Assembly: GCA_044892525.1 (NCBI GenBank)
Contig: CM097885.1
Location: 32,676,001 to 32,740,000, forward strand
Direction: 5' to 3'
DNA length: 64,000 nucleotides
From: Schmidtea polychroa
Taxonomy: Eukaryota
In this document: positions 1 through 37,447 of the stretch, in pieces
How positions within the stretch are numbered: position 1 is the first letter of the stretch
Layout: every line of letters begins with the position of its first letter
Position numbers and translations under genes: made by a program
The notes under the pieces: model-generated
Seen by the model: only the letters and a program-made list of their open reading frames with translations
What the model was told of the DNA's origin: nothing
Database searches by the model: none

Positions 1-1
1 T

Positions 2-3000
2 CTAAAGAGCGGATACTGGCAAATTAAAGTTAAAGAGGAAGATAGAGAAAAGACAGCCTTTACCATCGGAAAAGATTTATATCAGTTTAAAAAGATGCCA
101 TTCGGATTAACAAATGCACCTGCTTCGTTTCAAAGATGTATGAACTTTGTGACACACGGAATTAAACAATGTATGGTGTATATTGATGATCTGTTAATTT
201 ATTCAGGTACTTTCGAGCAACACTTAATCGATATCAGAAACGTCTTCATAAGACTGAAACAATGGAAGCTGAAATTGAAACCGTCAAAATGCGATTGGGC
301 AAAGGAGAGAGTCACGTTTTTAGGACATATTGTGTCGGCAAAAGGAAAGGAACCAGATCCGAGAAACGTTGAAAAGATAAAAAATTGCCCGATACCAAAG
401 ACTGTGACTCAGGTACAAGAATTTCTGGGATTATGCGGATACTACCGCAAGTTCATCAAAAATTATGCAACTATAGCAAAACCAATTCAGGAACTAACGA
501 AAAAAGACACCCCATTTTTGTGGGAAAGAGAACAGCAAATAGCATTCGAATCGTTAAGAGATAAACTAATAGCCTCACCTATTCTAATACACCCAGATTT
601 TAAAAAGCCTTTTCTACTAGCAACCGATGCCAGTGGATATGCATCAGGAGCTGTGCTAGGACAATGGGATGAGGAGAAACGAGAAAGAGTCATCGGATAT
701 TATAGCAAGACGTTCAAAAAGCACGAAAAGAATTACTCAGTCACAGAAAGAGAAGCCTTAGCAATAATTCAGGCGATAAAACATTTCAAATATTTATTGT
801 GGGGACACGAGATAATTATTACTACAGACCATCAACCTCTAGTTTGGTTGGGCCAACACAAAGAAGCATCTAGTCGATTAATGAGATGGGCAATGCAGTT
901 ACAAGAATATTCCCCATACATCAAATTCAAGTCAGGAAAAGCAAACGCAAATGCAGACTGCATGTCGAGATTTGTATTTGAGGAACTCATGGATCATGAC
1001 GTCAGACGAATATGCCTGATAATCGCGGAAGATATCGATTTTACCAATCTAAAGAACGAACAAAAGGAAGACAATGAATTAAAACTAATAATTGAGTTCC
1101 TGGAAAAAAACGATATGAAAATATTCAACAACGATGATCGACTAAAAGAACACATGGAGAAAAATCGTCACAGATATACGATCGAGAAAGGATGGCTATT
1201 GGTAATGGATGGCGACAAACGATTGATGTGTCTACCAGAAAGTAGACGGAAAGAAATTATGATTCAATACCACGATGGTAAATTGGGCGGACATATGTCA
1301 GCCAAGAAAACAGAAGCAAGGCTCAAACAGAAATATTACTGGCCAAATATGAGCGATGACGTGAAAGAATGGATAAAGAACTGCCTGATATGCGCAACCA
1401 GAAAAACAACGGGCAGTAAACTAAAGCCACCATTGAAACCAATGCCGATACCGCCAGAACCGATGACAATGATTGCAATGGATGTAGTTGGACCACTACC
1501 AGAGACTAACAGTGGAAATGTGTATATATTGGTAATAACTGATTATCTGACTAAGTTCCCTGAAGCATTTGCGATGCCAGACCAAAAAGCACGAACGGTT
1601 GCAAGGATATTAGTGGAAGAGATCTGCTGCAGATATGGAACACCAAAACAAATCTTAACTGACCAAGGAACTAATTTCATGAGCGAGATAATAAATGAAG
1701 TGACAAATTATTTTAGAATCGCCAAATTGAGAACCTCACCATACCACCCGCAAACGAATGGTCAGACAGAAAGATTTAACGGCATACTAATAGACATGAT
1801 GTCCAATTACGTGAGTAAACATCAAAAGGACTGGGATGAATATATTAAGTTGTGTCTAATGGCTTATCGAATGTCAATACACTCAGCAACGAAAATGAGT
1901 CCGTTTAAACTCATGTATGGAAGGGAATGCAACATGCCGATGGATCTCGAATACCAACCGCCAATCTCACAATATATGGAAATAGATGATTATGTGACAA
2001 AGTTCAAAGAGAGAATGCAGGAAATATGGAAAACCGCAGGAATGAACATCCGATTCAACCAGGAAAGTTATAAAGAATTACATGATAAAAAGAAGAACGT
2101 GCAAAACCATCAATTTAAAGTCGGAGATTGGGTTATTATAGAAACACCCGAGTTAATCCCAGGAACAGCAAAGAAATTACAACGTAATGGCAGAGGACCA
2201 TATGAAATCATCTATGTAAACGAGAACAACGCTCGAGTAAAGTTGGTTAACAATCCACTAATTAGACCCATATACGTGAATACATGTCGATGTAAAGCAG
2301 TAGCGAAAACTGCCACTAAAGATCCAGAAACAAGGAAGATAATCACGAGATCACAAACAAATGCCACAACAGAACCAGAAGTAAGCGGTAGATTAACTAG
2401 ATCACAGACAAGACGGATATTCATGTTGAGGAGAGAAACAAGCAGCAGCGCCAATAAAGGAACCGAAACAGAAAGCGAAGCTGACGCAATGGCAAGGAGT
2501 CAAGCGACATGGAATATGACAGTAAAAATAGCACGAGAAATTGTACCAGAATGGGCCAATATAACCAATAAATACCAGGTATTAGGCAAACTAATGATAG
2601 TAGCAGAAAGATATGCAAAAGGACGAAGAAACGCTGAAGGAGTACAAGTACCGACTCAAATGTGTGAACTAGTCCGGAGATTACCAATCATGTTCCTAAC
2701 AAGTGATTTGAGTAATAACTGGCCAATCCATCATGCAGTCAAAGCAGGACAGGAAAAACGAGCATTAGAGATCATACGAATAATGGAAAATTGCAAACAA
2801 TCGACAAACGTTAAAAATAGTAAAGGGAAAACTCCACTGATGAAAGCCATAGCAATAGGCGCGTCAAGAGAAGTACTCAGAGAATTATTGAGAACGGGAT
2901 CCACGTTGAAAGAAAAAGACAATAAACAACGAACCATTTTACGTTACGCCGTCAAGTCAAAAAGACCTAGCATACTAAGCTTTATCACGGGAAATGCAAC

Positions 3001-5179
3001 AACCGAAGAAGCCGAGGTGTTGGGACAGAGCATTGAACCAATTCTGGAAGCCATCAGAGGAAACTTAGACAGAACAGCAGCAATGTTAATCAAATGGAAA
3101 CAAAACGAATTAAGAGCGGAAGTAATTGATATAAATCAATTCCAAAACAACGAAAATATCGTACTAAGAAGCGCCATATACTCAAGACCACCAATGCCAA
3201 AAACCATTAAAGCAATATTACAAAGAAATAGAGCAGAATTGACAGGTAATTGGTGGAAATGCACAAAAGCACATACGATGAAAAAGCAACTAGAAATACT
3301 AGTGTGGGAATGGCACCGAAAACAACGGAAATATCAAGGAACCAAAGAAGAACGAGAAAGTATCCACAACGATAAAAAAGAGATAATTAAAAAATACGAA
3401 GAGATGATCAAAGCGACAAATGTCGAGGACGACATTTTTGGGAAAACCCCGGGTGAGAGGAATGACGACGATGACGACGACGAAAGGATGGGGGATAACG
3501 ATAACAACCCAGAGGAAAACGACAGAGAACAAAATCCGGAGGGCGGAGAAACAACGGATGATGATGAGGAGTTGGAAGAAGACGACGATGACCAATGTCG
3601 AGGTGAAGATCAAGGATTCGACAAAACAGAAAACAAAAAACGAAAGTTCCCACTACATAGCATAATGTTTCGAAATCAAATCCAGCCAATCCTACTACAA
3701 AGAATATTTATAATATTAACATCTATCTGTTTAACGGAAACAAAAAATATGAGAATCGTAAGAGAAGCTTTCCAAGAAGGCGAAGTATTTATGATAAAAG
3801 TCAGCGATTACGACGGAAACGCCGTCGGAATATGTGTTCAACTAATGGAAGGAACAGGAGTAAGTTGTGATTTCAGATCGATAACAAAAGGAAAGATTTT
3901 TAACAGCCAAAAAAGAGACCCCAGGCTATGTGGAGATTATGACATTTGTAAAGACATAACAACAGAGGAAATGGAACTAGAAAGAGCTAATGAAACCGGA
4001 GTACATTTCCAACTTAACATTTTGGAAGAAGGTATCGAAATAGAAGATAAAGGGAGTCGATCAATTACACATGTATGCATCAGAGAAGACAGAGACATAT
4101 GCATAATAACTGATATGACACAAGACCACAAATTCTTCTGGGGAGAGGTCAAACCAAATACCCCTACTGTGGTATGCGCAGGAACACAAGGGATAGTAGT
4201 GTGTAAAGGAACAAGAACTGCACCAAGAAAAGACAAACCAAGGAGTATGGCAATTAAACAAGGTCCATTGACGGAGAAAACAACCAAGAAGCCCAAGAAA
4301 TCAGTTAGTACAAAAACAACAACAGAGCTAAATCGAAGCGAATTAATAACAACAACAACATGGATTAACGAAGTAATTAAAGACGAAAGACGGGAAGTGC
4401 AGATAACTATTAACCTCAACAAGAAAGGTGAAGAGGTAATTACAGTCAAAAACCAGGAAGGAGAACCAATCATAAGGATATGTGTAATGGATAAGACGGG
4501 AATAATCGACTGTACAACAACACCGATAGACAAAGGTACAGACGTTAAAATGGAGACAGGGAAACGGAAAGAACGATACCAAGTATGTATCCTTAAGAAA
4601 GGAAGAGGAACCAGCGTATGTCAACCAATAACTCGACAAAAACCCCAATTAATAAACATACCGTGGATACCCCGAGATCAAGAAGGGGGAGAGAAACGGG
4701 AAAATCACAGTCACCTAACAGAAAAAGAGAAGGAACGATTACATCAAGCATTCAAGAAAATCAAAGCACCAGAAACAAATACCACAGGTAGTACAATATT
4801 AACGACAGAAAAAACAAATAATGGAACAACGATCATCACAAAGATGATATGGATAACTAGCGCGATAGTAAGCACGATAATAGCGTTAGCAATGATTCAG
4901 TGGATAAGAACCACCAAAAGATGTAAACAAAAACCGAGAAACCAAAGAAAATGGCCCAAAGTGGAAAAATTTGAATACGGTATTCCAACAGAGAATCTGA
5001 ATCTAGAGGAATACGAGGTGGTAGAGGATCCCGGATCCAGCGGATTGTGGATGTCGGAGCTACCAAGAATACCCACGCCCAACGAATGGACACACGAAGT
5101 CGATATATACCGACTAACGGACGAAAGATATGGGGGAATGCGCACGCTGCATTCCGGTCCCATGGCGACACTGGTATAA
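2..5179 (+). CDS. pol: Pol polyprotein (5'-partial): RT, RNase H, integrase with GPY/F, then ankyrin repeats, acidic tract, Cys-rich region, TM helix and cytoplasmic tail
   Basis: Frame is open from base 2 (LKSGYWQI...KTAF...MPFGL). YIDD at 179-190; RNase H TDAS/EALAI/TDH; HHCC (HDGKLGGH..CLIC); DDE (MDVVGP, TDQGTNF, QTERFN); RGPY ~2192; ankyrin-like WPIHHAV, GKTPLMKAI, RTILRYAV ~2714-3090; TM MIWITSAIVSTIIALAMIQWI 4844-4906. Confidence 0.95.
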   Translation, partial: LKSGYWQIKVKEEDREKTAFTIGKDLYQFKKMPFGLTNAPASFQRCMNFVTHGIKQCMVYIDDLLIYSGTFEQHLIDIRNVFIRLKQWKLKLKPSKCDWAKERVTFLGHIVSAKGKEPDPRNVEKIKNCPIPKTVTQVQEFLGLCGYYRKFIKNYATIAKPIQELTKKDTPFLWEREQQIAFESLRDKLIASPILIHPDFKKPFLLATDASGYASGAVLGQWDEEKRERVIGYYSKTFKKHEKNYSVTEREALAIIQAIKHFKYLLWGHEIIITTDHQPLVWLGQHKEASSRLMRWAMQLQEYSPYIKFKSGKANANADCMSRFVFEELMDHDVRRICLIIAEDIDFTNLKNEQKEDNELKLIIEFLEKNDMKIFNNDDRLKEHMEKNRHRYTIEKGWLLVMDGDKRLMCLPESRRKEIMIQYHDGKLGGHMSAKKTEARLKQKYYWPNMSDDVKEWIKNCLICATRKTTGSKLKPPLKPMPIPPEPMTMIAMDVVGPLPETNSGNVYILVITDYLTKFPEAFAMPDQKARTVARILVEEICCRYGTPKQILTDQGTNFMSEIINEVTNYFRIAKLRTSPYHPQTNGQTERFNGILIDMMSNYVSKHQKDWDEYIKLCLMAYRMSIHSATKMSPFKLMYGRECNMPMDLEYQPPISQYMEIDDYVTKFKERMQEIWKTAGMNIRFNQESYKELHDKKKNVQNHQFKVGDWVIIETPELIPGTAKKLQRNGRGPYEIIYVNENNARVKLVNNPLIRPIYVNTCRCKAVAKTATKDPETRKIITRSQTNATTEPEVSGRLTRSQTRRIFMLRRETSSSANKGTETESEADAMARSQATWNMTVKIAREIVPEWANITNKYQVLGKLMIVAERYAKGRRNAEGVQVPTQMCELVRRLPIMFLTSDLSNNWPIHHAVKAGQEKRALEIIRIMENCKQSTNVKNSKGKTPLMKAIAIGASREVLRELLRTGSTLKEKDNKQRTILRYAVKSKRPSILSFITGNATTEEAEVLGQSIEPILEAIRGNLDRTAAMLIKWKQNELRAEVIDINQFQNNENIVLRSAIYSRPPMPKTIKAILQRNRAELTGNWWKCTKAHTMKKQLEILVWEWHRKQRKYQGTKEERESIHNDKKEIIKKYEEMIKATNVEDDIFGKTPGERNDDDDDDERMGDNDNNPEENDREQNPEGGETTDDDEELEEDDDDQCRGEDQGFDKTENKKRKFPLHSIMFRNQIQPILLQRIFIILTSICLTETKNMRIVREAFQEGEVFMIKVSDYDGNAVGICVQLMEGTGVSCDFRSITKGKIFNSQKRDPRLCGDYDICKDITTEEMELERANETGVHFQLNILEEGIEIEDKGSRSITHVCIREDRDICIITDMTQDHKFFWGEVKPNTPTVVCAGTQGIVVCKGTRTAPRKDKPRSMAIKQGPLTEKTTKKPKKSVSTKTTTELNRSELITTTTWINEVIKDERREVQITINLNKKGEEVITVKNQEGEPIIRICVMDKTGIIDCTTTPIDKGTDVKMETGKRKERYQVCILKKGRGTSVCQPITRQKPQLINIPWIPRDQEGGEKRENHSHLTEKEKERLHQAFKKIKAPETNTTGSTILTTEKTNNGTTIITKMIWITSAIVSTIIALAMIQWIRTTKRCKQKPRNQRKWPKVEKFEYGIPTENLNLEEYEVVEDPGSSGLWMSELPRIPTPNEWTHEVDIYRLTDERYGGMRTLHSGPMATLV

Positions 5180-5781: not shown

Positions 5782-5870
5782 GAGAGAAAGGAGTGAAATG
5801 TAAATAATCCTGTAAATAAATAGAGTTATAATCAAGTAGAAATCCCAAGATTAAAAATCATCATTGTAGA

Positions 5871-7294
5871 ATGCAAAACAAAGCAGAGGAAAACCGGAGA
5901 GAAGCAGAGGAACAAAAGATTAACTATGAGTTGATGAGAAAATACCAAGCCGAGCCGGACGAGTTCGAAGAGAGATTATTATGTGCCGATACAGCATGTA
6001 GAAGATTATTAATTGGAGCAAGTCAAACTCGATGCGGGTGTAGATTGTGCCGAGGGTGTGATATAAGATTAGCCAGACTAAAGCGAGAAACTTGTCCAGG
6101 ATGTGGAGAAGCATTTAAGTTGGTTCCCACTGGTACGATACCGGATAGAGCAATGAACCGAGAAATCAGAGAAGTGAAAATAAGATGCACCCAAAGGTCA
6201 TGCGAATGGACAGGCCGAGTAAAGGAGTTAAGAGCCCATACAGACGTATGCGAATATCTAGAATCGGAATGCGAAGCATGCACGGTAAAGTTGTTACGAA
6301 AAGAGAAAACCAAACATAAAGGGGAATGCGAAGCGCGAACGGAAAAATGCGAATTTTGCGGAGAAACTGCTAATTGGAGAGAAATCGAAATGGAACATCG
6401 AAACGCAGTAGAAAGACGGATTTGCGACGAATATACAGGGAAATGCCCAAACGAGTGTGGAGAAATTAACAACGTCAGATTAAATGAACATTGGGAGATA
6501 TGCACGAGAAAAGCAATAAGATGCCCAATGGTGACATTCGACTGTAGAGCACAATTACCAGCAGAAGAAATGAAGAAGCATGTGGAGGAGAATACATTCG
6601 AGCACATGCAAAAGATGATGAGAGCAATAGAGTTAACAGCAAGAGCAATTGAAGACGTCAAAGACGAACTCAAATCACATAAAATCATGATAAAAGAAAT
6701 GCTGAGCTCACAGGAAAGCTTCGAAAATACGAGAGAAGCCGTAACACAAAGGATGTTGAAATTAGACGACAAATTAGTCGAAGTAACTAAATTACAAACC
6801 AAATGGACTACAAAGGAACTGACAACAGAGGAACTACCAATACTACCATACATGTGGAAAATCCAAGGAATAACGGAAATAATGGAGCAAGCAAAGCAAG
6901 GAATCCAGACAACGATAGTGAGCAAACCATTCTACGCCAAGAAACATGGATACAAGATGAAATTGAGATGGTTTCCAAATGGTGAAGGAAAGTTTAAAGA
7001 TCGGTGCATGTCCATATATATGCAAATTTGTAAAGGAGATTTTGACGACCTAATAGCATGGCCATTCCGACATAGATTAAAAATATCTCTCTTAGGAGCA
7101 AAAAAGACACATATAATGTGTTTTCGAGCATCCAGTCCAGCAGGGAATAAACCGATTACAGAGGTTAATCCTGCGGTAGGAGTAGCAGAGTTTATGCAGC
7201 TATACAATTTAATGAAGGGTCCTACATAGAAAAGGACACTATATTCTTCCTAATCGAACTAGATGAGGAAGGACCAACAATAGAAATACGATAG
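5871..7294 (+). CDS. TRAF-family protein (RING, TRAF zinc fingers, coiled coil, MATH); frameshift near 7220
   Basis: RING-like CADTAC..CGCRLCRGC..CPGC; CEWTG..H..VC zinc fingers; MATH SKPFY..GYKMKLRWFPNG..SIYMQICKGDFDDLIAWPF. The last MATH strand SYIEKDTIFFLIE is in a shifted frame (7220-7294). Confidence 0.92.
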
Positions 7295-7434
7295 ACGGAT
7301 AGAAGGGAACTGTAAATATTTTGTAAAAACGATGTAAAGTAAATATAAAGTTATTGTATACAGTAAAGTAACTTGCCAAAACCATAAAAATTAGAAAAAG
7401 AAAATGTAAAAAGAAATGATGAAATTTATTATAG

Positions 7435-8613
7435 ATGATTAATCAAGAGAGACCGAATATCCGAAAGAAAACGATCACAATGAGAGAGGAAGAGGACAAT
7501 ATGTCACCTAGAGAAAGAGTGAAGGATGCGGAAGTCAGCAAAACAAAACCAAGTAGTTACGCATATTATCGAAGAATGGGAAACGATTATAATTGGGTAC
7601 ACGAAAATTTGAAACTGGGAGATAATGAACAATTCAGATGTGAGAACCAGAGATATCTGTCATTTGAAGATCAGACCATTTTCACCAAGGAACAGAGCCG
7701 AGCGCTAGCACGCGACGGATTTTTCTTCTCCGGAAAACCAGAGATACCCGATCAAGTAACGTGTCGTTTCTGTAAAGGGAAATTAGCAGAATGGAAAAAA
7801 GGAGAACACCCAAAGGAGGAACATCGTAGACGATTCCCAACTTGTCTATTCGTACTGGGATTTGATGTACACAACAAACCGGAAATCAAATACGAAGCCT
7901 TGGAGAAATTGAAAACTGAAGACGAAAAAGGAGGGAAAATGAGCATCGCGATAACCAGAATCGTTGATGAGTATGTTCCAACTTGTGAAGGGGAATTCCT
8001 CACGCAAATAGCAGATAATAGAATGAAAACGTTCGGAGATGATACGAGAGGACCTGAATTAGCAATAAGAGGGTTCTACCTAACAGAAAATCAAATACTA
8101 AAGTGTGAAAGATGCGAAAGCCAACAGAGATTACCGGAAGAAGGCATACCAGAAATTAGACATCAAGCATGGTGCCTATATCACAACGAACAAGAAACCG
8201 AATATCCGGAAGTACTAGTAACAGAGGAAGAGGTTGACGAAGTGGTAGACAAACCCAACATGTGCAGAGCGTTGAAAGCAGCCGGAATAGGCACGACAAG
8301 GGCAAAGAACATGATTAGAGAGAGACTACAGAAAAATGTACATATACCAACAACAACGTACGATATGATCAGAGCGATAACCCAGTATAGAGAAAAACCT
8401 GAAACAAAAATAAAAGAAGAATCAATAGTCAAAACAGCTATCTTACGAGATATCAAATGTACTATGTGTTGGGAGAGGAGTGTAGAAGTTATTCATATGC
8501 CATGCGGACATTTGATCGCATGTGCCACGTGTAGTAGGAAAATAAAAGAATGTCCAATGTGTAGACAGAGGATTGCGCAGCGAATCAAAGGATTTCGCTA
8601 CGCCGATCAATAA
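7435..8613 (+). CDS. Inhibitor of apoptosis (IAP): BIR, degenerate second BIR, UBA-like region, C-terminal RING
   Basis: BIR1 RYLSF..LARDGFFF..DQVTCRFC..W..H....C; BIR2 RMKTF..LAIRGFY..CERC..H...C; RING CTMC..PCGHLIACATC..CPMCR. Confidence 0.95.
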   Translation: MINQERPNIRKKTITMREEEDNMSPRERVKDAEVSKTKPSSYAYYRRMGNDYNWVHENLKLGDNEQFRCENQRYLSFEDQTIFTKEQSRALARDGFFFSGKPEIPDQVTCRFCKGKLAEWKKGEHPKEEHRRRFPTCLFVLGFDVHNKPEIKYEALEKLKTEDEKGGKMSIAITRIVDEYVPTCEGEFLTQIADNRMKTFGDDTRGPELAIRGFYLTENQILKCERCESQQRLPEEGIPEIRHQAWCLYHNEQETEYPEVLVTEEEVDEVVDKPNMCRALKAAGIGTTRAKNMIRERLQKNVHIPTTTYDMIRAITQYREKPETKIKEESIVKTAILRDIKCTMCWERSVEVIHMPCGHLIACATCSRKIKECPMCRQRIAQRIKGFRYADQ

Positions 8614-8696
8614 CGAAAAATAAAAATTTCGTGTATAAAGTGTAGATAATAAATGTATGAAATAATAGTAGTAGTAATAGTGTAATTATTTAGACA

Positions 8697-10295
8697 ATGA
8701 ATAAAGAATCACAAACCTATGTGGAAACCGAGATGCAACAACTCGAACAGTACAAATCCATCATACAAACATACGAAGCAGAAAGAGTAAAGAGAGAAAT
8801 AGAAATGTACAAAACCATGTATGAGAAAAAGCAACAAGAGTTAGAAGTGGAGAAGGCGGAAACACTAGCAGCAAAAGAGAAGTGGATGAAACAGGTAGAG
8901 GAATTAACCGAAGATGTGAGAAATACATCAACATACCAAGAATTGGAGGAGGAGCTCTCGAACTTACGAACTCAGCGGATTATGGAGATAGTTGGGTTAT
9001 GCGGAGAGATAATAATGCAGAAGACACAAATTAGAGAAGCAAAGGAGCAATACGAGGAAGAACAGCGTAAAACGGAACGAATAAAACTACAAGCGCAACA
9101 ATGGAAACGAAAATACGAAACCCTCCAAACGAGGCAGAATGATAGTCACGAACATCAAATACGAGGGTATAAAGTAGAACTAGAAGAAGCAAAGAATCAA
9201 TGTGCAATGATGAAAGAAAAATGGGAAAGATGCAAAAGGACCCTAAGCGAAGTCAGGGGACAAGGGAGGAGAACACCACGTAAAGAACCAATCGTTAAAG
9301 ATAACGTATTAGAGCGAATTAACGCACAAATAAAGATACAAGCTCAGAAATGGAAGTATAAATATCTAGGAAGTCAAACCCAAGTGCTCTATTGGAAAAT
9401 CAGTAGCAAGGAACAACTGCGATTACGAAAAGCAGACCAAGAATTTTACGAAATAAGGGCTACACAGCGAGAAGAAGAGGAAGTAGAGTGGAGAAAACGA
9501 CAGCAGAAATTTGAGGAAACCGAAGAGTGTCTCAAGCATCAAGCCCGAAAATGGAAAAAGAATTGGAAAGAGACCAAAGAGGAGTTAAGACAGTTACCAA
9601 TGAAACTGATGGAAAGAGACGAATTTAAAATGTGGGAAACGATAGAAAACCAAAAAGATGAGATCAGCCGATTGAGTAGAGAACATAGAATCAAGACGCG
9701 GACCAGCGACGGTAGACGGAGAGTCATAAAGAAACAGACTCGAGAAATAAGAAGGTATGAATACCAGGAAAAGAGATGGGAACAACAATTGACAGACCAA
9801 GATCGACAGATCCGACAATTACAAACAGAGGTAGAGGAAGCTAATCAAGAGATGAACGGATATAAAGGTATGTACACCCAAAGGGATGTGAATTGGAAGC
9901 ATCAGATTGCGCTTAATGCGAAATGTAGAGAGGAGTGCGATAAGGCAATTCAACAAGCCAAACAGGAAACCGAGATAATAAAACGATGCTTCGAAGAAAA
10001 TGAAGCGAATCTGAGAGCAGAAATCGAGAAGTTGAAAATGCTTGAAAAAACCCAACGATTGGAAGAGGAATTGGATGAGATGATAGAAAACGAAAGTAGA
10101 TTAACGTTTCTGTTGGATGAAGAAATAAACATCGCAACGGAATTGCGGGAGGAAGTAGAGCGGTTAAGAAGACAACCACCAATACTATTAATGCCACTCT
10201 ACCCGTTCCCATTACAAGTGCCACAGCCTGCCGAAGTTACAGCAGATGAAGGCTTCGAAGAAAATAACGAACAAAATAACGCAACATGGATTTAG
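8697..10295 (+). CDS. Long coiled-coil protein of unknown function (cargo)
   Basis: 532-aa intact ORF, E/K/Q/R-rich heptads, internal repeats QAQQWKRKY / QAQKWKYKY / QARKWKKNW, Pro-rich tail. Confidence 0.85.
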   Translation: MNKESQTYVETEMQQLEQYKSIIQTYEAERVKREIEMYKTMYEKKQQELEVEKAETLAAKEKWMKQVEELTEDVRNTSTYQELEEELSNLRTQRIMEIVGLCGEIIMQKTQIREAKEQYEEEQRKTERIKLQAQQWKRKYETLQTRQNDSHEHQIRGYKVELEEAKNQCAMMKEKWERCKRTLSEVRGQGRRTPRKEPIVKDNVLERINAQIKIQAQKWKYKYLGSQTQVLYWKISSKEQLRLRKADQEFYEIRATQREEEEVEWRKRQQKFEETEECLKHQARKWKKNWKETKEELRQLPMKLMERDEFKMWETIENQKDEISRLSREHRIKTRTSDGRRRVIKKQTREIRRYEYQEKRWEQQLTDQDRQIRQLQTEVEEANQEMNGYKGMYTQRDVNWKHQIALNAKCREECDKAIQQAKQETEIIKRCFEENEANLRAEIEKLKMLEKTQRLEEELDEMIENESRLTFLLDEEINIATELREEVERLRRQPPILLMPLYPFPLQVPQPAEVTADEGFEENNEQNNATWI

Positions 10296-10325
10296 TCGGA
10301 GAGAGGTTGCCTGTAAATAAGAATG

Positions 10326-10355
<30 letters not shown>
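10326..10355 (+). repeat. A30 homopolymer in a cargo spacer
   Basis: 30 consecutive A, shortly after TGTAAATAAG. Confidence 0.95.
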
Positions 10356-10360
<5 letters not shown>

Positions 10361-10454
10361 AAGCCAAAACCAAATAAAAATTACAAATTACAAAACCAAA
10401 AATTCAAAATAAAAGGGAGACGAAAGGAAAAATGATGTGTATATTTTTGTAGAT

Positions 10455-11165
10455 ATGAATTATTTAAAAGACAGAGAATCAACGAGTAACGCAAGAAAAT
10501 CAATTGACCAACCTGAACAAAGCCAGAATACGATACCAATCAAACAAGAACCGATGAAATATTATAGTAATAAATGGAGAGTCAGCAAGAAGTTGTTCAA
10601 AACAAAAATCGCAAATCAAAATGTAGAGATTACGAGATTGAGACAGCATATTGTTCAATCAAGACGATTAATAAACACTGTCAAGCAGGAAATTTTGAGG
10701 GAAATAAATGAATCGAAACTAAAAGAGACGGAAAATAAAAACCTGAGACAAGAGATAGTAGAGTTGAGAGCTCAGGCAGTAATCGAAGACTATTGGAAAT
10801 CAGAAACAAGGAAGTTGAAAAAGATTGTGAATATCGACCAAGTGTATATCGAACAATTGGAAGCACAATACGCTTATGCAAAAGCGAGAATGCGGGAAAG
10901 TAAAAAGGTCGACAAGAGAAACGCAAGACTCAAGGAGGAGATCAAGGAACAAAGAGAGGAAACAGAAAAACAATGGAAGTTGAAAGAGAATTATCGGAGA
11001 ATTTTAAATCAAAAACGACGAAGCATGCAAGCACTGCAGACGACAATGACCATCAGACAGAGAAAATGGAAAAGTGAAGAGAAGCGATTACAAGAAATGC
11101 CAGAATTAAAGAGACAGTTGATGGCAACGCAACTCGAAGTAATAAGGATGAACGAGTTGAGTTAA
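10455..11165 (+). CDS. Coiled-coil protein of unknown function (cargo)
   Basis: First ATG at 10455 after TTTTTGTAG; basic coiled-coil composition; IANQNVEITRL resembles IENQKDEISRL in the preceding ORF. Confidence 0.8.
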   Translation: MNYLKDRESTSNARKSIDQPEQSQNTIPIKQEPMKYYSNKWRVSKKLFKTKIANQNVEITRLRQHIVQSRRLINTVKQEILREINESKLKETENKNLRQEIVELRAQAVIEDYWKSETRKLKKIVNIDQVYIEQLEAQYAYAKARMRESKKVDKRNARLKEEIKEQREETEKQWKLKENYRRILNQKRRSMQALQTTMTIRQRKWKSEEKRLQEMPELKRQLMATQLEVIRMNELS

Positions 11166-11297
11166 GACGAGCACCTGAACCTCCCGTAAAATTAAGGGAT
11201 GAGGTCGGTGGCTCCCAATAAATGAGATAAAATAACTGTGTAAATAAATTGTAAATAAAGCCAAGTAATTATTATTAACGTATATGTATATGTAAAG

Positions 11298-12284
11298 ATG
11301 AGAAGCCTAACCGTGGTGATAATTATAATGACAATGCCCAGAATCCTGCAAGCTGAAGAATCAATGATCAGATGCCAGAAAGAATACCCATATCGCAGAG
11401 AAGATAGCACCTGTAGTAGCTTTAAATCAATCTGTGAAAAACCCAATGAAGAATGCGAACAAATCAAGTTGCAATGTTCGCAATGTCCACAAACAACTGG
11501 AAGTTCGACGGAAATGCAAATGGCTCAGACAATGAAAACAATATTAGAACAAGAAATGAAAGTTATCAGAACCCAGATAGCAACATTAGCCAAACAATTC
11601 CAAAGCCAGAAATCAAAGAAAGAAACCCAAACGGATCCGGCCGCAATGAGAATGATGGTAATAATATTAGAGGAAATAAAACAACAGGTAACAGCAACCG
11701 CCAATGGACGTTCAAGCAATTGCGAAATAGTAGTAAAATCTTTAGAGGAAATGAAAGGGAAAATAACTTCCATCATCAAAGAGGAACCCAGCATTAAAAA
11801 TGAGGTAACGAAAACATTGAAAGAAATGACAAAAGAAGTCCTAACTACCATAAACAAAAACCCAATGAACTCCGAGAAGATGATTAAAACCCTGGAGGAA
11901 ATAAAGAAAGTTGTCAACTCGGAAGAAAACAAATTCAACAAACCCGAAAAATCAGAAATTACAGATACAACCCAATTGGGAGAAATGATAAACAAACCCA
12001 GAGTAGTAGAACTAAGAGAATCTGAACCCCTCACAATATTGATCCTATTAGCGGCAAGCCTAATGATAAACATTACCGTACTGAGCCTGATTGCACTCAA
12101 ACCCAATTCCAGTAAAGCAAGAAACAAAACCCTCAAACTAAAAGAACAATCAAAGAATATTCATATCCCAATGGAAGAACAGCTAATCCAAACAACGAAC
12201 CAACCAAGATACTTCAAATCTTCCCCAAACATCGAAACCAGAGCCGTCATCGAGACGAGATCCCGAACAACAGAATTCTATTAG
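11298..12284 (+). CDS. Type I membrane protein: signal peptide, 6-Cys domain, helical stalk, TM helix, tail with PxEE (TNFR-like or env-like)
   Basis: N-terminal MRSLTVVIIIMTMPRILQA; C-x12-C-x6-C-x6-C-x6-C-x2-C; repeated KTLEE(I/M)K-type stalk units; TM LTILILLAASLMINITVLSLIAL; PMEE at 12168-12179. Confidence 0.85.
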   Translation: MRSLTVVIIIMTMPRILQAEESMIRCQKEYPYRREDSTCSSFKSICEKPNEECEQIKLQCSQCPQTTGSSTEMQMAQTMKTILEQEMKVIRTQIATLAKQFQSQKSKKETQTDPAAMRMMVIILEEIKQQVTATANGRSSNCEIVVKSLEEMKGKITSIIKEEPSIKNEVTKTLKEMTKEVLTTINKNPMNSEKMIKTLEEIKKVVNSEENKFNKPEKSEITDTTQLGEMINKPRVVELRESEPLTILILLAASLMINITVLSLIALKPNSSKARNKTLKLKEQSKNIHIPMEEQLIQTTNQPRYFKSSPNIETRAVIETRSRTTEFY

Positions 12285-13298
12285 TGTGACATCATGACAG
12301 TAAAAACATTTCACGACATTATAAACGATAAATCATCCTGATCGAACAATTGATTTCAAAGACTGAGACTACGATTAATGACACTGATTCTTGAGCATGA
12401 TAATGTTATTTTTATGTGGGCCGACCTCGGTCGTTCTTTTCCTTCATCTTTCAACCCATCTGTAAAATGTAGTGTAATAGTAGCATTTTTATGTATGTGG
12501 GTATTGAGGTCACGACCCTGTAGCTCGTGGACCCAATTTGCATGTAGGCACTTGTAATATAGTGCAAGTATTCTGAAAATTAATCTTATTCATCTTTGGA
12601 TTTAAATTGCGGGTCGCAATTTTATGGGCCCCCGAGTGTTTTATGTTGGGCTAGAACTGATTTCTAGACCCAAACTACTAATTGTGACTGAAACGTGCAG
12701 GTACACAACATGTAAAAAGCAAAAAGTATAGTTAAATATTAAAACCTACACCAAATAAACAATATTAACTAAAGGAGAAAGCAACAAAAACATAAACAAA
12801 GAAATTAAATAAAATTATACAGAAGCAAGAAGTGATGCAAAAATCTAACTCAAAAATAACCAAACAAACATAGAATTACCAAAAGCAAACTCGAATAACT
12901 TAAAAGACGATAAAAATAGTAAAACATTCCAGAAAGACCCAGAACATTCTATAAAATGGCGATGACCATCACAAAAGTCATCTAGAACAACAAAAGTTAA
13001 GGAAAATAAATGAATTAGTATTAAAAATAAAAAATCTCAAAAAGAAATTCATAAAAACATCAGTTAAAAATAAAAATTAAATTAAAAGTAAAATAGAATG
13101 TTCTGGAACCGTTCCAAATCCATCATGGACGTAAAGTAATGAAAAAATAATTAAAAAATAAAAATTTAAAAATAAAAACAAAAATTATAGCACAAAAATT
13201 TCCACAAAAAATATAAAAATCATGAAATAGAAAATTCTGGAATAAAAAGAATTCGAGTTTGTTTTAACGCATCAATACATACACGTGTACAAAATAGG

Positions 13299-13307
13299 TA
13301 TATATAC
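13299..13307 (+). promoter_or_regulatory. Candidate LTR TATA box
   Basis: TATATATACTG at the switch from A-rich to T-rich + strand; equivalent position to TATAAATACTG (~20756) in the short LTR. Confidence 0.4.
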
Positions 13308-16202
13308 TGACACGTTTCAGGCACATTAAGCATTATTTTGTTTATGCCAATATTTTATTAGAAATTTTCCGAAAATTATTAGTAAGTAGATTTTTCTTTT
13401 GTTATTCGATGTTATCATGATTAATGTAACTATTTTAATGTAGATTAATATCCATAAGATCAATTTCTTTTTATTTTTTATCTTTTATTAAAAATTTTTG
13501 TTTGAATACGACTGATCAGCGGCGTCTCAGTGCGTCTCTGTTCAGTCCTGCATTTGATATTAACAATTTTTGAAACATGCAGACATGCCATATTCTATAT
13601 ATATATTTTTTTTTGTTTGGTCATCGGAGGTCGGCCACTTCATGGTTCTACCATGGAGTTGTGTCGATAAAACCCCTCCGCTATGGCTCTATATGCTTTA
13701 TTTATCGGTCGACAGTGATGTTTCGACTCAACACAACAGTAGGGCTTGTCGTAGCGGTCACAGTGGGGCCGTGTAAGCAAGCATTCTTCCCGAGTACAAG
13801 CAAACATATTTAATTTCAACATTAAAAATCGTAGACAATAGGGTACACTAAGGTCATAATCGAGTAGATCTCAGACCCAAATTGAACACAGCAATTACAA
13901 TTCAGCTAATGTAGTCGGTTAAGACCTCTCCACTTACACGTTTGTCGAACCTCATTGAGAAATAATTTTTCGTATCAGTGTAAATGTCTCTCTCGAAATT
14001 GACCGTAATGATGCTCACGAAGGAGTTCGACAAGCGTGAATCGTAAAATGAACTATATACTCTCCTGTTACACTTAAACATCAGGCTATAAATGTATAAT
14101 GTTCCTAAACTATAGAATATATGTTAGAATTGCTAAATACTTAGAATTCCTAAATGGTAAAACATAACTTACTACCGTACTTAGAATTATATGTGATAAA
14201 TACGTAATACCTCTAAATTACAAATATGAGTTAATATTGTCTTCAAAAATATAATTTATAAAAGTTAAATTGTCAAATACCTCTTAATACTATGCCTGAA
14301 AATAATGCGGAATATTCATAAATTATAAAATTTTACTTTATACTATCCTCAAAATTATAATCTATAAATGTGTAAAACATAATTTATAAATATGAAATTA
14401 TAATATACATGCTTGAAAAGCAATTTTAAAAATGTGTAATATTCCTAAATTATGAAATTTTACCCTATATTATTCTTAAAATTATAACTTATACCTGTGT
14501 AAAAATATAATTTATAAATGTCAAATTGTAAAATATAACCTAGTACTATGCTTGGAGGTATAATTTATTATGAAATATAACCTATTTCTATACTTAAAAA
14601 TATAAGTTAAAAAGGTACGTAAATAATTTTTATTGTACCTAAAAATATGATTTATAAATATGTAATATTACTAAATCATAAGATTGTATTGCTTGTGGTT
14701 CGTAAATCTTACCTTGAGATTATCAGTAGCAAACTAAAATGTAAACTCATACTACGTATAAATTATAAATTATATCTTAGTATTTTCTGTATAAAAGTAT
14801 AAAGTCATGCTACTCATAAAGTACAAATTATGTCTTAGAATTATACACAAAAATATAAACTATAGGTTTATATTGCCCATCAATTATAGAATGTAACGTA
14901 TGCATAGAATGCAAATTACAAACTATAAGGTATGATTTTGGTTATAAGTTATAATTTCGGTATCCATAAATACAAATTATAAATTCCAAAGAATAGAAAC
15001 TATTACTAGCTATATATAGCTCATGAGTCCGTAAAGTGTAAATTGCAAGGCTGAAGTGTGGATTATGGAATAATTATATAAAGTATAAACCGTAGATTAT
15101 TTTTATAAAAGTATAATCTAATTATATGTCTAAATTATAAAATTATATATCAAAATTATCTATCTAAAAATTATATATCTAAATTACACCTCTAAATTAT
15201 ATATCTAAATTATATAAACTTATAAAATACCATCGTAAATTTAGATTACCAATTATAAACTATGATTTCATACTCCATATAAGGTAAAGGACCAAATTCT
15301 GAATTCTAAGTTTATATTTCGTATATAATTGATGAATGACGAATGTATAAAATGTACAGTTGCGTATGCGAAATTAGCTAGGTTATAATTAACCCCTACG
15401 CCAAAATCATGGAGTACAATGACAAACATAAAGGAGAAGCACGCCCGACCTCTAGATCGGAAACCGCAGTGAAGCTTGACGGTAATTTAATTAAAACTAA
15501 TTTAACATCCAGTCGAAAGAGAGAATAATATTTAACATTTATTTTACAACATCAAGGTTCTAGTGGGCTGAACCAGGATTGCCGAGAGAAGTTCATTGTG
15601 GGCTGGAGTCTTGCATACTCCAGCTGTTCCCGCTCGTTGCTGGGAATTGCAAATAGGATTGACAGTTGCGGATAATTCCTGAACTTTACGAATCTACTAA
15701 TTTTAAATTTACAGTCTAACTTACTTCGAAGGATCCAGATGAATTGCAACACAGAAGGGAATGAATCTAAAAATCTAATATACCAAAATAAACTAAATTT
15801 ATCAGAAAAAAGTTTTTAAATATTTAAAAGCCTTATAATTACATGTATTTAAAATTTACTATTCAAAACCATTGTAGTTTACTTTAAATTTGACCTTATT
15901 ATGATTGTTACGATAAAACACCGTAAAATATGATTAATTGGTAATTTCCGCGTAAGGTAAATTTTAATGTATAGTGAAAGACTTGAATTTTAATTTAAGC
16001 AAAAGTTGAGGGTACCCTTTCAAGTACAATTTAAGTTAATCTGATTAATTGTTTAAATTATGAACATTTGGAGTTTGTTTCGTATTTTAAGCAAATTTTT
16101 TTGTTGTGTGTGGTTTCATATTAGCCCGCGAGCGTTGTAGCAGAGAGAAGCGTTCTCGTTTGCATTGTGATAACCTTATTAATCATTGCTACCCAAACAG
16201 AT

Positions 16203-16568
16203 ATGTCACACTCAGACGACTACAGCGATGATGACGGCTACAGACAAATAATCACCCGGCTCCGGTCCCGGTACGTCTGGTTTCACATCCATCGGTGGAG
16301 CCAGGGACGGGACTTAGATTGTTCCAACCAAGTAATCCGGACGGGCCCCGAAGTGGATGCCCCGGCGTGGGTAAAAGTAGAGCCCACCAACAACGTGCTC
16401 CGGGAAGCCCGCGATCGAGCGGCCGATGAGGTGGTGGAGGCCCAAAAGCGGCTGAGGAGACTCGAGCTCCAACTCAAAGCCGAAACACTGGGGGTAACTC
16501 TTGAAGAGCTGGAGGAGACCGACACCCCTCCACGAAAACGGGGAAGGCCCCGCAAGAACCTGGCCTGA
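16203..16568 (+). CDS. LTR-encoded small protein with coiled coil and C-terminal AT-hook
   Basis: GC-rich ORF in AT-rich surroundings; ATG directly after ACAG|AT; PRKRGRPRK at 16530-16556. Confidence 0.7.
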   Translation: MSHSDDYSDDDGYRQIITRLRSRYVWFHIHRWSQGRDLDCSNQVIRTGPEVDAPAWVKVEPTNNVLREARDRAADEVVEAQKRLRRLELQLKAETLGVTLEELEETDTPPRKRGRPRKNLA

Positions 16569-16881
16569 CTCATCGACAGGCGCGGCTTGAATGGAATGGT
16601 TTTGACTGATTTCATCCAGTGATATTTTACCTTGTAGTAGCATGACGAATTGTATTTTTCTTTTGTTCGTTAAATCTTGACAATATAGTCTATCGTGTAT
16701 CTTCGTAGTGCAATAAATTAATTTTTGTTTCGCTATTACATTTTGAACTTTATAGCTAATGGGGTGTATTCATGATTGAGGTGCCCCTTTTCTCATCACC
16801 CACTTATTAATTTCATGCACGTACTCTAACCAACTTTGCGCACCTGGATGCGAGCGATGGAATTTATTATTATTTTCTTCA

Positions 16882-17316
16882 GTGTACCAGTTATTGGAAA
16901 ACCTACGAAAGGACCGCGAACAGGCCCAGCAACAATCCGAGGGTCTCCGAGGTCGGGTCGAAAAACTCAAGCTGAAGTATCGAGAACTCCAAAGTACGTG
17001 GTTCAGTCCGGCCGACATGAAAAAACAAACTACGCGCATCTCACAACTCCAGACCCAGGCGGAGCAAGATCAGCTCGAGATCCGAGCGCTGAAGCTACAA
17101 GTGCGCTCGCTCGAGAGTAAATTGAACGAAAGGATTGTCCAGGACACCCTTTGCGAGCAGATTCGTCCTCTTGCCGTAGAGTTGGCCCGGATATACCCAC
17201 CGGCCCAGACGAACAAGCCGAAACGCAAACGGTTAGGGCGGAACACCCGAGAGAAATTGAAAAGGGCCTGGCTGGCCGAGCAGGAGAAAGGGAAAGAGCC
17301 GGAAGGCAATCCATGA
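16882..17316 (+). CDS. LTR-encoded coiled-coil protein with basic NLS-like tail; needs splicing or a GTG start
   Basis: GC-rich ORF beginning at a strong acceptor TTTTCTTCAG; heptad pattern; KPKRKRLGR. Confidence 0.6.
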   Translation: MYQLLENLRKDREQAQQQSEGLRGRVEKLKLKYRELQSTWFSPADMKKQTTRISQLQTQAEQDQLEIRALKLQVRSLESKLNERIVQDTLCEQIRPLAVELARIYPPAQTNKPKRKRLGRNTREKLKRAWLAEQEKGKEPEGNP

Positions 17317-18360
17317 TCTTGGGAGGCGTTCGAGAGTGCGTGAACAATCCGTGTAATATGGTGGTGGCTTAATAAATGAGTCTTGTTATTTAATGAGTAT
17401 GAGAGTGAACTTTGCTGTTGTCAAAAACAGGATGGTTGGCGGGAAGGCGCTTGGAAAAACAATCTCGATGAGGGACCGAAATAAATCGGACACGTGCCTT
17501 CTATCGGCGTCCGTGAACCCATAGAGTGCTCGACAATTACAGTGCTTGGCGCGCTCACTTTTTGCGAGTACTCAACCCCTTGGTACAGTACCAACGTTGA
17601 TTGCTCAACGGGTACCAAGAGGAAAACAATGTTGTATTCTGGGTTACGCTGGTAACAGCACTTAAACATTCAACCACCAGTAACCCACCATGACTTTCAG
17701 AATATTTCTTATATATTTTGATGCCCCTTGCTCGCTTCGCCTGTTCTCTCATAATAAATTGTCACTACATTTTTTTATATAATATAAAGAGTAAAATAAA
17801 TTTGAGAATTTCACTAGGTGCCGCTTGTAAAGAATTTGTGGTGGCTAACCTATATCTAGGCGCAATTCGTTCAGTCGGTAATTTGTTAAGATCTTTTAAT
17901 TTAAATACGGAAAATTCAACTTTGAATTTTGAAATGAATCATTTTTTAACAAAAATGGTTAAAAATCTTTACTACTGAGAAAATTGAATAAAAGTGAACA
18001 ATTATTATTAATTATTTTTTAAATTAATCAAATTTAATTATTTAAATTTTATATCTTCTTTACCGCGGTAAATTAACCAAAATGGCTAAAAATGAAAATT
18101 TTGTGGGTAATGAATGCGTAAAAAAATATTTATACTATTTTAATATCAATTTAAACGCAATTTTAAATTGAAGATGTAATGTATCGGTGCAAACAAATAT
18201 AGTTTAGGATAATAGATGAAGAAGCTTCACCACTCGTGTCTTAGATACTACTGCATATCTCAATATAATGAAATATTTCAATTATAAATAACAAACGTTT
18301 TATATTTTGTCGTTTTTTTCATATTGAATATTAATTATCTTGAACATAAATATATTTCAG

Positions 18361-30027: not shown

Positions 30028-30808
30028 AGTAGTAGGATTGGAGCTCCCCAGATCAGGAGCTCCCCGCATCACATATACCCCCTCCCCCCCCCCCCCGGGA
30101 AAAAAAATTTTTTTTTTTAATTTTTTGTTTTAATTAATTGGCCTGGCGGGCTCACACTTTTTTTCATCCCAAAAATTAATGTTCCCACCAACATATTTTA
30201 TTGACCGATACCTCATCTTAAAGCCCAGTCCAAGACCTTTCGAATGAGCTATAGGTATCATATATATCTTTAATAGTTTTAATGTTATTAACAATTGATG
30301 ACCACCATCTTTTCAACGTTAAATTATTATTATTATTCAAAATATTATTAATTGGCCGGGCGGGGACATACTTTTTCTCATCCCAAAAATTAATGTTCCC
30401 ATTATCCGAATTTATTAATCGATAGCTTATTTTGAAGCGTAGTCTAAGACCTTTCAATTGAGCCATAGAAGGTATCATCATCATTAATATTAACAAAGAG
30501 AATGACTCACCCAATGACTCACCCAACGATGTCTAATATTTTTAGAACGATGACTCATCAAGGTCATTCCCAAGGTCATATGACTCATCAAGGTCAAGGT
30601 CATTTTTTTTTAATTTAATTTTTTGTTTTAATTAAGTAATCTTTTTATTTTCAAGGTCATTTAATTTTCAAGGTCATTTATTATTTTCAAGGTCATTTAT
30701 TTTTTCAAGGTCATTTATTTTTTCAAGGTCATTTACTTTTCAAGGTCATTTAATTTTCAAGATCATTTATTAAAATAATTATTATTTTCTAAGTTTTTAG
30801 TTTCTAAG

Positions 30809-30868
<60 letters not shown>

Positions 30869-31997: not shown

Positions 31998-32058
<61 letters not shown>

Positions 32059-32253
32059 ATTATAATTATTATATACTCATAGTCTATCCGACAAGATATT
32101 CTGTCTCCCTATGGGTACTGCACACAAATGTACTACTCACATTCAACAAGTCACCAGGGTACTGCTCACAATCAACAACTCGCTAGGGTATTATTAGTAT
32201 TATTAATAATGACTAAGATATTTTCAAAGAATTATTATTACAACTCCCAAGAA

Positions 32254-32290
<37 letters not shown>
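30028..32290 (+). repeat. Left composite TIR (~214-bp units, TCAAGGTCA arrays, (TTA)n)
   Basis: Blocks are reverse complements of 37447-39546, with differences in unit number. Confidence 0.85.
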
Positions 32291-36516: not shown

Positions 36517-36532
36517 TAATAATAATAATAAT

Positions 36533-36622
<90 letters not shown>

Positions 36623-37145
36623 GTTTAATGGGTTGTATATGTGTGTAAAAAATATTTGAGGTTTTCACGAATATTGATAATAATAATGGTTTATGAGTGT
36701 TTTTATGTTTTTGACTAATATTTGCAATAATAATAATGGTTAATGGGTTGTGTGTGTGTGTGTAAAAATATTTTAGGTTTTTAATATTGATAATAATAAT
36801 AATAATGGTTAATGGGTTGTGTGAGTGTAAATAATATTTTAGGTTTTTGACTAATATTTGCAATAATAATAATAATAATAATAAGTTTAATGAGTTGTAT
36901 GTGTGTGTGTAAAAATATTTTAGGTTTTTAATATTGATAATAATAATAATAATGGTTAATGGGTTGTGTGTGTGTGTGTAAAAAATATTTTAGGTTTTCA
37001 CTAATAATGATAATAATAATGGTTAATGAGTTGTGTGTGTGTGTAGAAAATATTTTAGGTTTTTAATATTGATAATAATAATAATGGTTGAGGGGTTGTG
37101 TGTGTGTGTGTGTAAAAAAAATATTTTAGGTTTTCACTAATAATG

Positions 37146-37200: not shown

Positions 37201-37201
<1 letters not shown>

Positions 37202-37446: not shown

Positions 37447-37447
37447 G

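What the first reader, a model, noticed from the sequence alone, without database searches (positions are those of the whole stretch)
11298..12284. Env-position ORF looks like an atypical TNF receptor with a TRAF-binding motif
Seen: signal peptide; CQKEYPYRREDSTCSSFKSICEKPNEECEQIKLQCSQC; about five helical stalk repeats; TM helix; cytoplasmic IPMEEQ. From recollection, the C-x6-C-x6-C-x2-C spacing resembles the single cysteine-rich domain of Grindelwald/TACI-type TNFRs; this is not verified. Inference: a coiled-coil stalk could oligomerise the protein constitutively (functionally like EBV LMP1) and engage the element's own TRAF, or it may be a decoy. I saw no clear fusion peptide or furin site typical of env.
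Basis: partly seen in the sequence, partly recalled or inferred. Interest (0 to 1): 0.85.

Follow-up and report, generated by a model that had tools for sequence, protein, structure and literature searches.

The report
Retrotransposon carries captured TNF-receptor-like gene
The last gene of this giant retrotransposon is not its envelope gene but an intron-free relative of a host cell-surface protein family, likely captured from the host and likely of TNF-receptor type, and it travels beside the element's own TRAF and IAP genes, with which it would form a portable cell-survival signalling kit.

Summary
ORF 11298-12284 is the last accessory gene of a young 35.5-kb Burro-type gypsy element with at least 122 copies of this ORF. 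It is not env: the fusogen lies inside the polyprotein (PF24664, E 4.5e-69). Its six-cysteine domain is homologous to a clustered host family. All 22 host loci showing the motif carry a splice donor at the same place, and the element's gene has no intron, so retro-capture is likely. Across 64 distinct copies the cysteine domain is under strong purifying selection (1 shared amino-acid variant against 12 silent) and IPMEEQ never changes.

TNFR membership is likely, not proven. It rests on sub-threshold ESM Atlas leads (Grindelwald, TACI, Fn14), a moderate-confidence model with a hairpin plus two helices, and the type I layout; the cysteine spacing is non-canonical. The best reading is a receptor that recruits TRAF and IAP for survival signalling (0.45); a decoy is the main rival (0.25). 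An LMP1-like constitutive mode is less likely, because the ectodomain is the most conserved part and the stalk is a broken 25-residue repeat. Burro's IAP is published in a paper I could not read. The scan had not noted this ORF before.

The parts
11298..12284 (+). Last accessory ORF (328 aa): intron-free type I membrane protein related to a host single-CRD receptor family
11298..11354 (+). Predicted signal peptide, aa 1-19
   Evidence: hydropathy; host paralogs have a hydrophobic leader at the same place; no SignalP run
11355..11489 (+). Six-cysteine domain, aa 20-64; modelled as a beta-hairpin followed by two helices
   Evidence: shared-variant pN/pS 0.02; 48% identical to P0004 over 46 aa; model pLDDT 69.7
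11523..11597 (+). Looser fifth stalk helix, aa 76-100
11646..11945 (+). Four 25-residue helix-loop repeats, aa 117-216
   Evidence: period 25, 0 of 1000 shuffles; register
12033..12101 (+). Transmembrane helix, aa 246-268, with a mid-helix Asn258
   Evidence: hydropathy and pN/pS 0.12; N258 unchanged in 64 of 64 distinct copies
12165..12182 (+). IPMEEQ, aa 290-295, candidate TRAF-binding motif
   Evidence: unchanged in 64 of 64 distinct copies; one of 13 fully invariant six-column windows of 323
11280..11297 (+). T-rich stretch ending in AG directly before the ATG; possible splice acceptor
   Evidence: last 12 nt identical in 20 of 20 copies; similar signal at 5 of 6 accessory ORFs against 2.6% of background ATGs, criterion chosen after looking
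5871..7229 (+). Element's stand-alone TRAF ORF (zinc fingers, MATH; N-terminal Cys cluster RING-like by eye). This copy is frameshifted near its 3' end relative to 17 of 17 other full-length copies and lacks the last MATH strand
7435..8613 (+). IAP ORF (BIR + RING)
   Evidence: PF00653 E 1.6e-15, PF13920 E 2.3e-12; pN/pS 0.09
8697..10295 (+). Accessory ORF, 532 aa, coiled-coil-like by composition
10455..11165 (+). Accessory ORF, 236 aa, coiled-coil-like by composition
1..5179 (+). 3' end of the polyprotein frame (RT, RNase H, integrase, ankyrin, C-terminal TM module). The frame opens about 9.2 kb upstream of the window, where it holds Gag knuckles, a TRAF3-like MATH domain, the fusogen and the protease
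12644..17690 (+). 3' LTR, 5047 nt, 3 differences from the 5' LTR, which starts 17.8 kb upstream of the window; 4-nt target-site duplication

Best explanation
The ORF is an intron-free relative of a host family of single-cysteine-domain membrane proteins, likely retro-captured and likely of Grindelwald/Fn14-type TNF-receptor kind, which would bind an extracellular partner through its conserved cysteine domain and recruit a TRAF through IPMEEQ, so that TRAF and the element's IAP would push the host cell towards survival. Shown: not env; homology to an intron-containing host family; purifying selection on the CRD, TM and IPMEEQ; physical linkage to TRAF and IAP genes in most copies. Inferred: capture through a spliced mRNA; TNFR-type fold; expression from a spliced subgenomic mRNA; lengthening of the stalk by tandem duplication, which would hold the CRD further from the membrane. 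Untested: ligand identity, TRAF binding, which TRAF (stand-alone ORF, polyprotein MATH or a host TRAF), and the direction of the signal.
For: Fusogen PF24664 (E 4.5e-69) is in the polyprotein, as published for Burro (PMC6431247 section 7). The only database homolog, P0004, is a 244-aa protein with signal, CRD and TM, 48% identical over the CRD. Of 24 own-genome loci examined, 22 are host genes with the first half of the motif and a GT donor 10 nt after the third Cys codon (22 of 22), one has a stop inside and one is an element copy. Nine of 10 tried give a three-exon domain with all six Cys, 13-21 of 47 residues identical to the element. In 64 distinct copies the CRD shows 1 shared non-synonymous against 12 synonymous variants (pN/pS 0.02; whole ORF 0.33; P 3e-4 for so few variable columns). 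IPMEEQ is unchanged in 64 of 64 while positions 286, 287, 289 and 297 vary in 26-51 of 64. ESM Atlas ranks Grindelwald first for both this protein (0.82) and P0004 (0.80), with TACI-like and Fn14 clusters next (leads only). The AlphaFold2 model from a 21-row alignment gives hairpin then two helices, the layout described for Grnd (PMC8024323 passages). Fn14 recruits TRAF2/5 through PIEET (PMC7072601 passage). TRAF sequence lies upstream in 19 of 20 copies and IAP in 20 of 20, full length in 17 and 18. Burro1's IAP is reported to protect stem cells from caspase-mediated death (as cited in PMC13465017).
Against: Both Atlas scores are under 0.9, shuffled proteins reach 0.8 a third of the time, and the recognition value 1752 is under the 2300 mark. 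No TNFR family in Pfam matches the ORF or any of 21 aligned CRD rows. Six Cys against Grnd's eight, and a Phe sits where Grnd has Cys57 (mapping by eye). The model is only moderately confident (pLDDT 69.7, pTM 0.40; three of five models under 60), and a 5-row alignment gave an all-helical model. The TRAF consensus arises by chance in 25% of tail shuffles. I found no PMEE in the tail of P0004 or in the mappable tail exons of its nearest own-genome gene. The stand-alone TRAF's MATH is diverged around the segment that forms the peptide groove in TRAF2/3 (groove positions recalled). The copies are close relatives (88-100% identical) and the 40 added copies were taken from rows without stops.
Confidence: 0.45

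Rival explanations
1. Decoy or dominant-negative receptor. The conserved CRD soaks up the ligand of the host family, or pairs with host receptors, and IPMEEQ sequesters host TRAFs, damping a death or immune signal instead of sending one.
For: The CRD is the most constrained part. A stalk of about 180 aa against about 60 aa in P0004 would lift the CRD above host receptors. The host has at least 22 family members and dozens of MATH genes to interfere with. Poxvirus TNFR decoys are the precedent (recalled).
Against: TM and tail motif are also constrained, and full TRAF and IAP genes are kept alongside under selection. A pure ligand sink would not need them.
Confidence: 0.25
2. Ligand-independent signaller like EBV LMP1: stalk and TM helix self-associate and cluster TRAFs constitutively.
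For: Four amphipathic repeats. Asn258 in mid-membrane is unchanged in 64 of 64 copies, and polar TM residues often drive helix association (established knowledge). LMP1 mimics active CD40 through TRAFs (PMC3697994 passage).
Against: The repeats are broken by Pro/Gly loops and are under weaker selection (pN/pS 0.35) than the CRD (0.02), which suggests that the CRD still binds something.
Confidence: 0.12
3. A captured host membrane protein that is not a TNFR and serves in adhesion, particle attachment or cell-to-cell transfer; PMEE is conserved for another partner.
For: The element encodes a real fusogen that could use an attachment partner. Other Burro lineages hold an unrelated 203-224-aa type I protein in or like this slot, so the slot may need a membrane protein rather than a TNFR. 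The cysteine spacing is non-canonical.
Against: Two queries with different stalks and tails give TNFR-clan look-alikes. The modelled topology fits. The cargo is rich in TRAF, IAP and RING genes.
Confidence: 0.14
4. It is the element's env (fusion protein).
For: Only its position after pol and its type I topology.
Against: The fusogen is in the polyprotein. No RxxR site. The CRD is homologous to intron-containing host genes.
Confidence: 0.02

Closest known systems
Burro1/GYPSM1 giant gypsy-type LTR retrotransposons of planarians (PMC6431247 section 7 read; Lee et al. 2026 seen only as cited in PMC13465017)
   Same: Over 30 kb; one polyprotein of about 4,700 aa with Gag knuckles, MATH, env-like region before the protease, RT, RNase H, integrase and ankyrin; accessory BIR/RING gene.
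   Different: The texts I could read name no receptor-like accessory ORF. Grohme 2018 and Lee 2026, with their supplements, could not be read and may annotate it.
Drosophila Grindelwald and the single-CRD TNF receptors Fn14, BCMA, TACI, BAFF-R
   Same: Type I layout with one small CRD modelled as hairpin plus two helices; no death domain detected by Pfam; PMEE resembles Fn14 PIEET.
   Different: Six Cys with spacing 12-6-6-6-2 against eight in Grnd; lacks the Asp-x-Leu hairpin motif (Grnd lacks it too); long repeat stalk; no significant sequence match; encoded by a mobile element.
Viral TNFR mimics: EBV LMP1, poxvirus soluble TNFR decoys, herpesvirus TNFR homologues (LMP1 from PMC3697994 passage; others recalled)
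   Same: A parasite keeps a TNFR-pathway membrane protein to steer TRAF signalling.
   Different: LMP1 is a multi-pass protein without a CRD and the pox decoys are secreted (recalled). Here the candidate receptor, TRAF and IAP lie together in one retroelement.

Membership tests
TNF receptor superfamily, single-CRD type | Type I membrane topology with signal peptide, one TM helix and a cytoplasmic tail | tested here: met
   hydropathy; same layout in P0004; no SignalP or TMHMM run
TNF receptor superfamily, single-CRD type | Significant sequence or profile match to a TNFR CRD family | tested here: not met
   no TNFR Pfam family at E up to 0.1, 1 or 10; Grnd itself has very poor homology to other TNFRs; Atlas 0.82 and 0.80 are leads
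TNF receptor superfamily, single-CRD type | CRD fold: beta-hairpin module followed by a helix-loop-helix module | tested here: inconclusive
   DSSP of model m657ba5990e41 shows this order at pLDDT 69.7; fold searches could not confirm it
TNF receptor superfamily, single-CRD type | Canonical C2-module cysteine pattern (C-x3-C ... C-x3-C) | tested here: not met
   Phe/Tyr-x3-Cys in place of Cys-x3-Cys in 21 of 21 rows; hydrophobic-x3-Cys in the second helix; Grnd consensus
TNF receptor superfamily, single-CRD type | Binds a trimeric TNF-family ligand | not testable with these tools
   no ligand sequence was in hand to model
TNF receptor superfamily, single-CRD type | TRAF-interacting motif in the tail | tested here: inconclusive
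   PMEE fits the recalled consensus and is invariant in 64 of 64 copies, but 25% of shuffled tails fit too
Gypsy/Burro env (fusion glycoprotein) | Fusogen homology and a furin-type site | tested here: not met
   no fusogen family and no RxxR in this ORF; PF24664 matches the polyprotein
LMP1-like constitutive signaller | Ligand-independent oligomerisation | not tested
   no oligomer model was run; sequence arguments only
Retro-captured host gene | Intron-free copy in the element of an intron-containing host family | tested here: met
   22 of 22 host loci with a donor at one site; two introns inside the CRD in 9 of 10 tried; none in the element. Shown for the CRD only; a host origin of stalk, TM and tail is not established
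Burro-type giant LTR retrotransposon (the carrier) | Over 30 kb, long LTRs, polyprotein with MATH, in-frame env, PR-RT-RH-IN and ankyrin; BIR gene | tested here: met
   no direct alignment to a named Burro sequence was possible

The most novel reading that the evidence does not exclude
An env-bearing retroelement has assembled a whole TNFR-TRAF-IAP survival module from host genes and runs it in stem cells, and the captured receptor exposes an unrecognised family of more than 20 flatworm Grindelwald-like receptors that act upstream of the greatly expanded planarian TRAFs.
Probability: 0.3. Interest if true: 0.88.

Novelty: new variant of a known kind. Interest (0 to 1): 0.68.

Why it matters
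Viruses with large DNA genomes are known to carry TNFR-pathway mimics, and Burro1's IAP is reported to protect planarian stem cells. A receptor for the same pathway in the same cassette would turn single-gene capture into capture of a signalling chain, from membrane to ubiquitin ligase, by a retrotransposon. It also gives a handle on the host: TRAFs are required for cell survival in planarians (PMC7586133 summary), the passages I read name no upstream receptor, and the clustered micro-exon family found here is a direct set of candidates for RNAi.

Tried and rejected
Homolog searches: word-indexed search with the ORF found nothing among 1521 candidates; searches with P0004 and with a 3-row CRD profile returned only P0004. 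PDB sequence searches with the ORF, the CRD and three alignments gave no TNFR chain at E up to 1 or 10; the fusogen region had no PDB sequence match.

Ligand: PF00229 had no match in G000, but nothing rang in the controls either, so absence is not shown.

Expression: no RNA holder listed. Contigs of four runs guessed to be RNA cover the ORF in part, and no joint from a leader to the ATG was listed; this says nothing firm. The five listed differences inside the CRD are all synonymous (40 rows shown, 186 not shown).

Origins: a host origin of the stalk repeats is unresolved (best P0004 window 15.8 against 14.5 in an unrelated coiled-coil ORF), as is TM homology. CRD and MATH trees did not name a donor (long branches). 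The middle exons of the host gene could not be mapped. An alignment with second-exon rows misaligned and was not used.

Literature: ten searches listed no paper whose title or abstract start describes a TNFR-like ORF in Burro. Grohme 2018 and Lee 2026 were not held.

Full report
Context. The window holds the 3' half of one LTR retroelement. With 20 kb of upstream DNA, two 5047-nt LTRs that differ at 3 positions and a 4-nt target-site duplication bound a 35.5-kb element, so this insertion is very young. A 4791-codon open frame carries CCHC knuckles, a MATH domain, a viral fusion glycoprotein (PF24664, E 4.5e-69), protease, RT, RNase H, integrase and ankyrin repeats. Behind it come a TRAF ORF, an IAP ORF (BIR + RING), two coiled-coil-like ORFs and the ORF in question. 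This matches the description of planarian Burro/GYPSM1 elements, including env in frame between gag and pol (PMC6431247, section 7 read). That the host is a planarian is my inference from this match. The env slot is therefore already filled elsewhere, and this ORF has no fusogen match and no RxxR site.

Observation. The stalk has a 25-residue period that no shuffle of 1000 reaches. It is four clear helix-loop units plus a looser one, broken by Pro and Gly, so 'coiled coil' overstates it.

Selection. The genome search scored 122 of 1078 candidates; all 122 are 90-100% identical and 115 have no stop inside. I analysed 70 of them (the top 30, plus 40 taken from lower rows without stops; 64 distinct). 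Variants shared by two or more copies give pN/pS 0.33 for the ORF, 0.02 for the CRD (1 against 12), 0.12 for the TM helix, 0.35 for the stalk, and 0.8 to 1.4 for leader, linker and juxtamembrane parts. Five Cys never change and C46 changes in one copy. IPMEEQ is unchanged in 64 of 64 while its neighbours vary, and it is one of 13 invariant six-column windows of 323. With 29 further copies picked by CRD score, one copy of 91 has a change in the motif. The copies are relatives, so these are not independent events, but the synonymous excess shows that the protein was under selection as the family spread.

Origin. A full HMMER search of 1.84 billion representatives gave one hit, P0004 (E 1e-5), a 244-aa protein with leader, the same six Cys, TM and tail. 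P0004's best match in G000 is not an element but a gene whose CRD is split by short phase-1 introns. Searching with its first exon revealed a family clustered mainly on contig C3. Of 24 loci examined, 22 show the motif with a GT donor 10 nt after the third Cys codon, one has a stop inside and one is an element copy. A second exon was found for 12 of the 22 within the DNA fetched, and 9 of 10 tried gave the full six-Cys domain with two introns. The element's gene has neither intron, which is what capture through a spliced mRNA leaves. This is shown for the CRD only. That protein has many relatives down to 32% identity, so the CRD gene is likely a lineage-specific replacement.

Is it a TNF receptor? 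For: ESM Atlas puts Grindelwald first for both this protein and P0004, followed by TACI-like and Fn14 clusters. AlphaFold2 with 21 rows gives a hairpin followed by two helices (pLDDT 69.7), the order described for Grnd, Fn14, BCMA and TACI (PMC8024323 passages). The 12-residue gap between the first two Cys, with a fixed aromatic in the middle, matches BCMA and Fn14 as I recall them; no call tests this. Against: Atlas scores under 0.9 are leads that shuffled proteins often reach, no TNFR Pfam model matches, the C2-module cysteine pattern is not met, and the shallow alignment gave a different model. I put TNFR-superfamily membership at about 0.6 and do not file it as a member.

TRAF and IAP. In 20 copies chosen by this ORF, TRAF sequence lies upstream in 19 and IAP in 20 (full length in 17 and 18), and the IAP is under selection (pN/pS 0.09). 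The window's own TRAF ORF is frameshifted near its end relative to 17 of 17 full copies, which may be a private mutation or an assembly error. The element has two MATH domains. The polyprotein's aligns end to end with TRAF3 (E 1e-31); the stand-alone one is more diverged. The host has dozens more. PMEE resembles the PIEET by which Fn14 recruits TRAF2 and TRAF5 (PMC7072601 passage), and Fn14 signalling involves a cIAP1-TRAF2 complex (PMC3697994 passage). The motif is short and common by chance, so only its invariance supports it.

Expression. Five of six accessory ORFs have a T-rich stretch and AG within 2 nt of the ATG, against 2.6% of other ATGs; the sixth has AG at 3 nt (criterion set after looking). 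Spliced subgenomic mRNAs are therefore likely but not shown.

Mechanism. I commit to a ligand- or partner-binding receptor that recruits TRAF and, with the IAP, favours survival of the cell that carries active copies (0.45). This fits the report that Burro1's IAP protects stem cells, which I saw only as cited in PMC13465017. A decoy (0.25) explains the CRD constraint equally well but explains the retained TRAF and IAP less well. The LMP1-like mode (0.12) has the invariant TM Asn in its favour and the strongly constrained CRD against it. A non-TNFR surface role is 0.14 and env 0.02. Grnd itself transmits pro-apoptotic signals (PMC8024323 passages), so the direction of the signal is open.

Novelty. 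Burro, its in-frame env, MATH and BIR cargo are in print. In ten literature searches and the passages read (PMC6431247 section 7; passages of PMC11410931, PMC8532177, PMC7586133, PMC13465017, PMC13563047, PMC3245616, PMC13238120 and bioRxiv 10.1101/2024.07.27.603686) I saw no receptor-like Burro ORF and no such host family in Schmidtea. The two primary Burro papers and their supplements were not available and may bear on this. The scan's own notes hold nothing on this sequence. Verdict: a real, selected, likely host-derived receptor gene; a new variant of a known kind; interest 0.68.

Noticed in passing
G000:C3 about 86.1-86.4 Mb, 111.1 Mb and 117.5-119.1 Mb; C2:122.7 Mb; C4:18.6 Mb (L108-L130): Clustered host family of at least 22 single-CRD membrane or secreted protein genes built from phase-1 micro-exons. 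The CRD looks internally duplicated (two C-x2-F-x3-C-like units).
   Followed up: partly
G000:C1:260793-290807 (L182-L184) and L188-L203: A second Burro lineage has the same gene order but a different 203-224-aa type I membrane protein in the last slot. Three of 17 members have a CD40-like (P/S)VQE in the tail, most have a (P/S)QE and a Tyr-x-Asn motif.
   Followed up: partly
window 3700-5179: The polyprotein ends, after integrase and ankyrin repeats, in a second membrane module: internal hydrophobic stretch, about 400 aa with 13 Cys, TM helix and an 85-aa tail; no Pfam family above cut-off.
   Followed up: no
window 5871-7229: The window's TRAF ORF is frameshifted near its 3' end relative to 17 of 17 other full-length copies compared.
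   Followed up: yes
G000:C2 about 3-5 Mb and 105-124 Mb (L152-L181): Large host expansion of TRAF MATH domains, about 50 hits among the 150 scored.
   Followed up: partly
window 16203-16568 and about 16780-17316 (inside the LTR); L032:7952-8434: The LTR carries two short ORFs in a GC-rich part, and a 160-aa RING ORF lies between the 5' LTR and gag; the second lineage has a related RING ORF.
   Followed up: no
window 5850-11297: T-rich/AG signals directly before the accessory ATGs suggest a set of spliced subgenomic mRNAs as in complex retroviruses.
   Followed up: partly
window 30028-39546: A separate 9.5-kb structure bounded by 471-nt inverted repeats (99% complementary) with nested inverted and tandem repeats; likely a foldback or TIR element.
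   Followed up: no
G000:C1:292000-320000 (L185-L187): ORFs resembling a Polinton/Maverick element (packaging-ATPase-like, integrase-like and DNA-polymerase-B-like, by eye) next to the second Burro copy.
   Followed up: no
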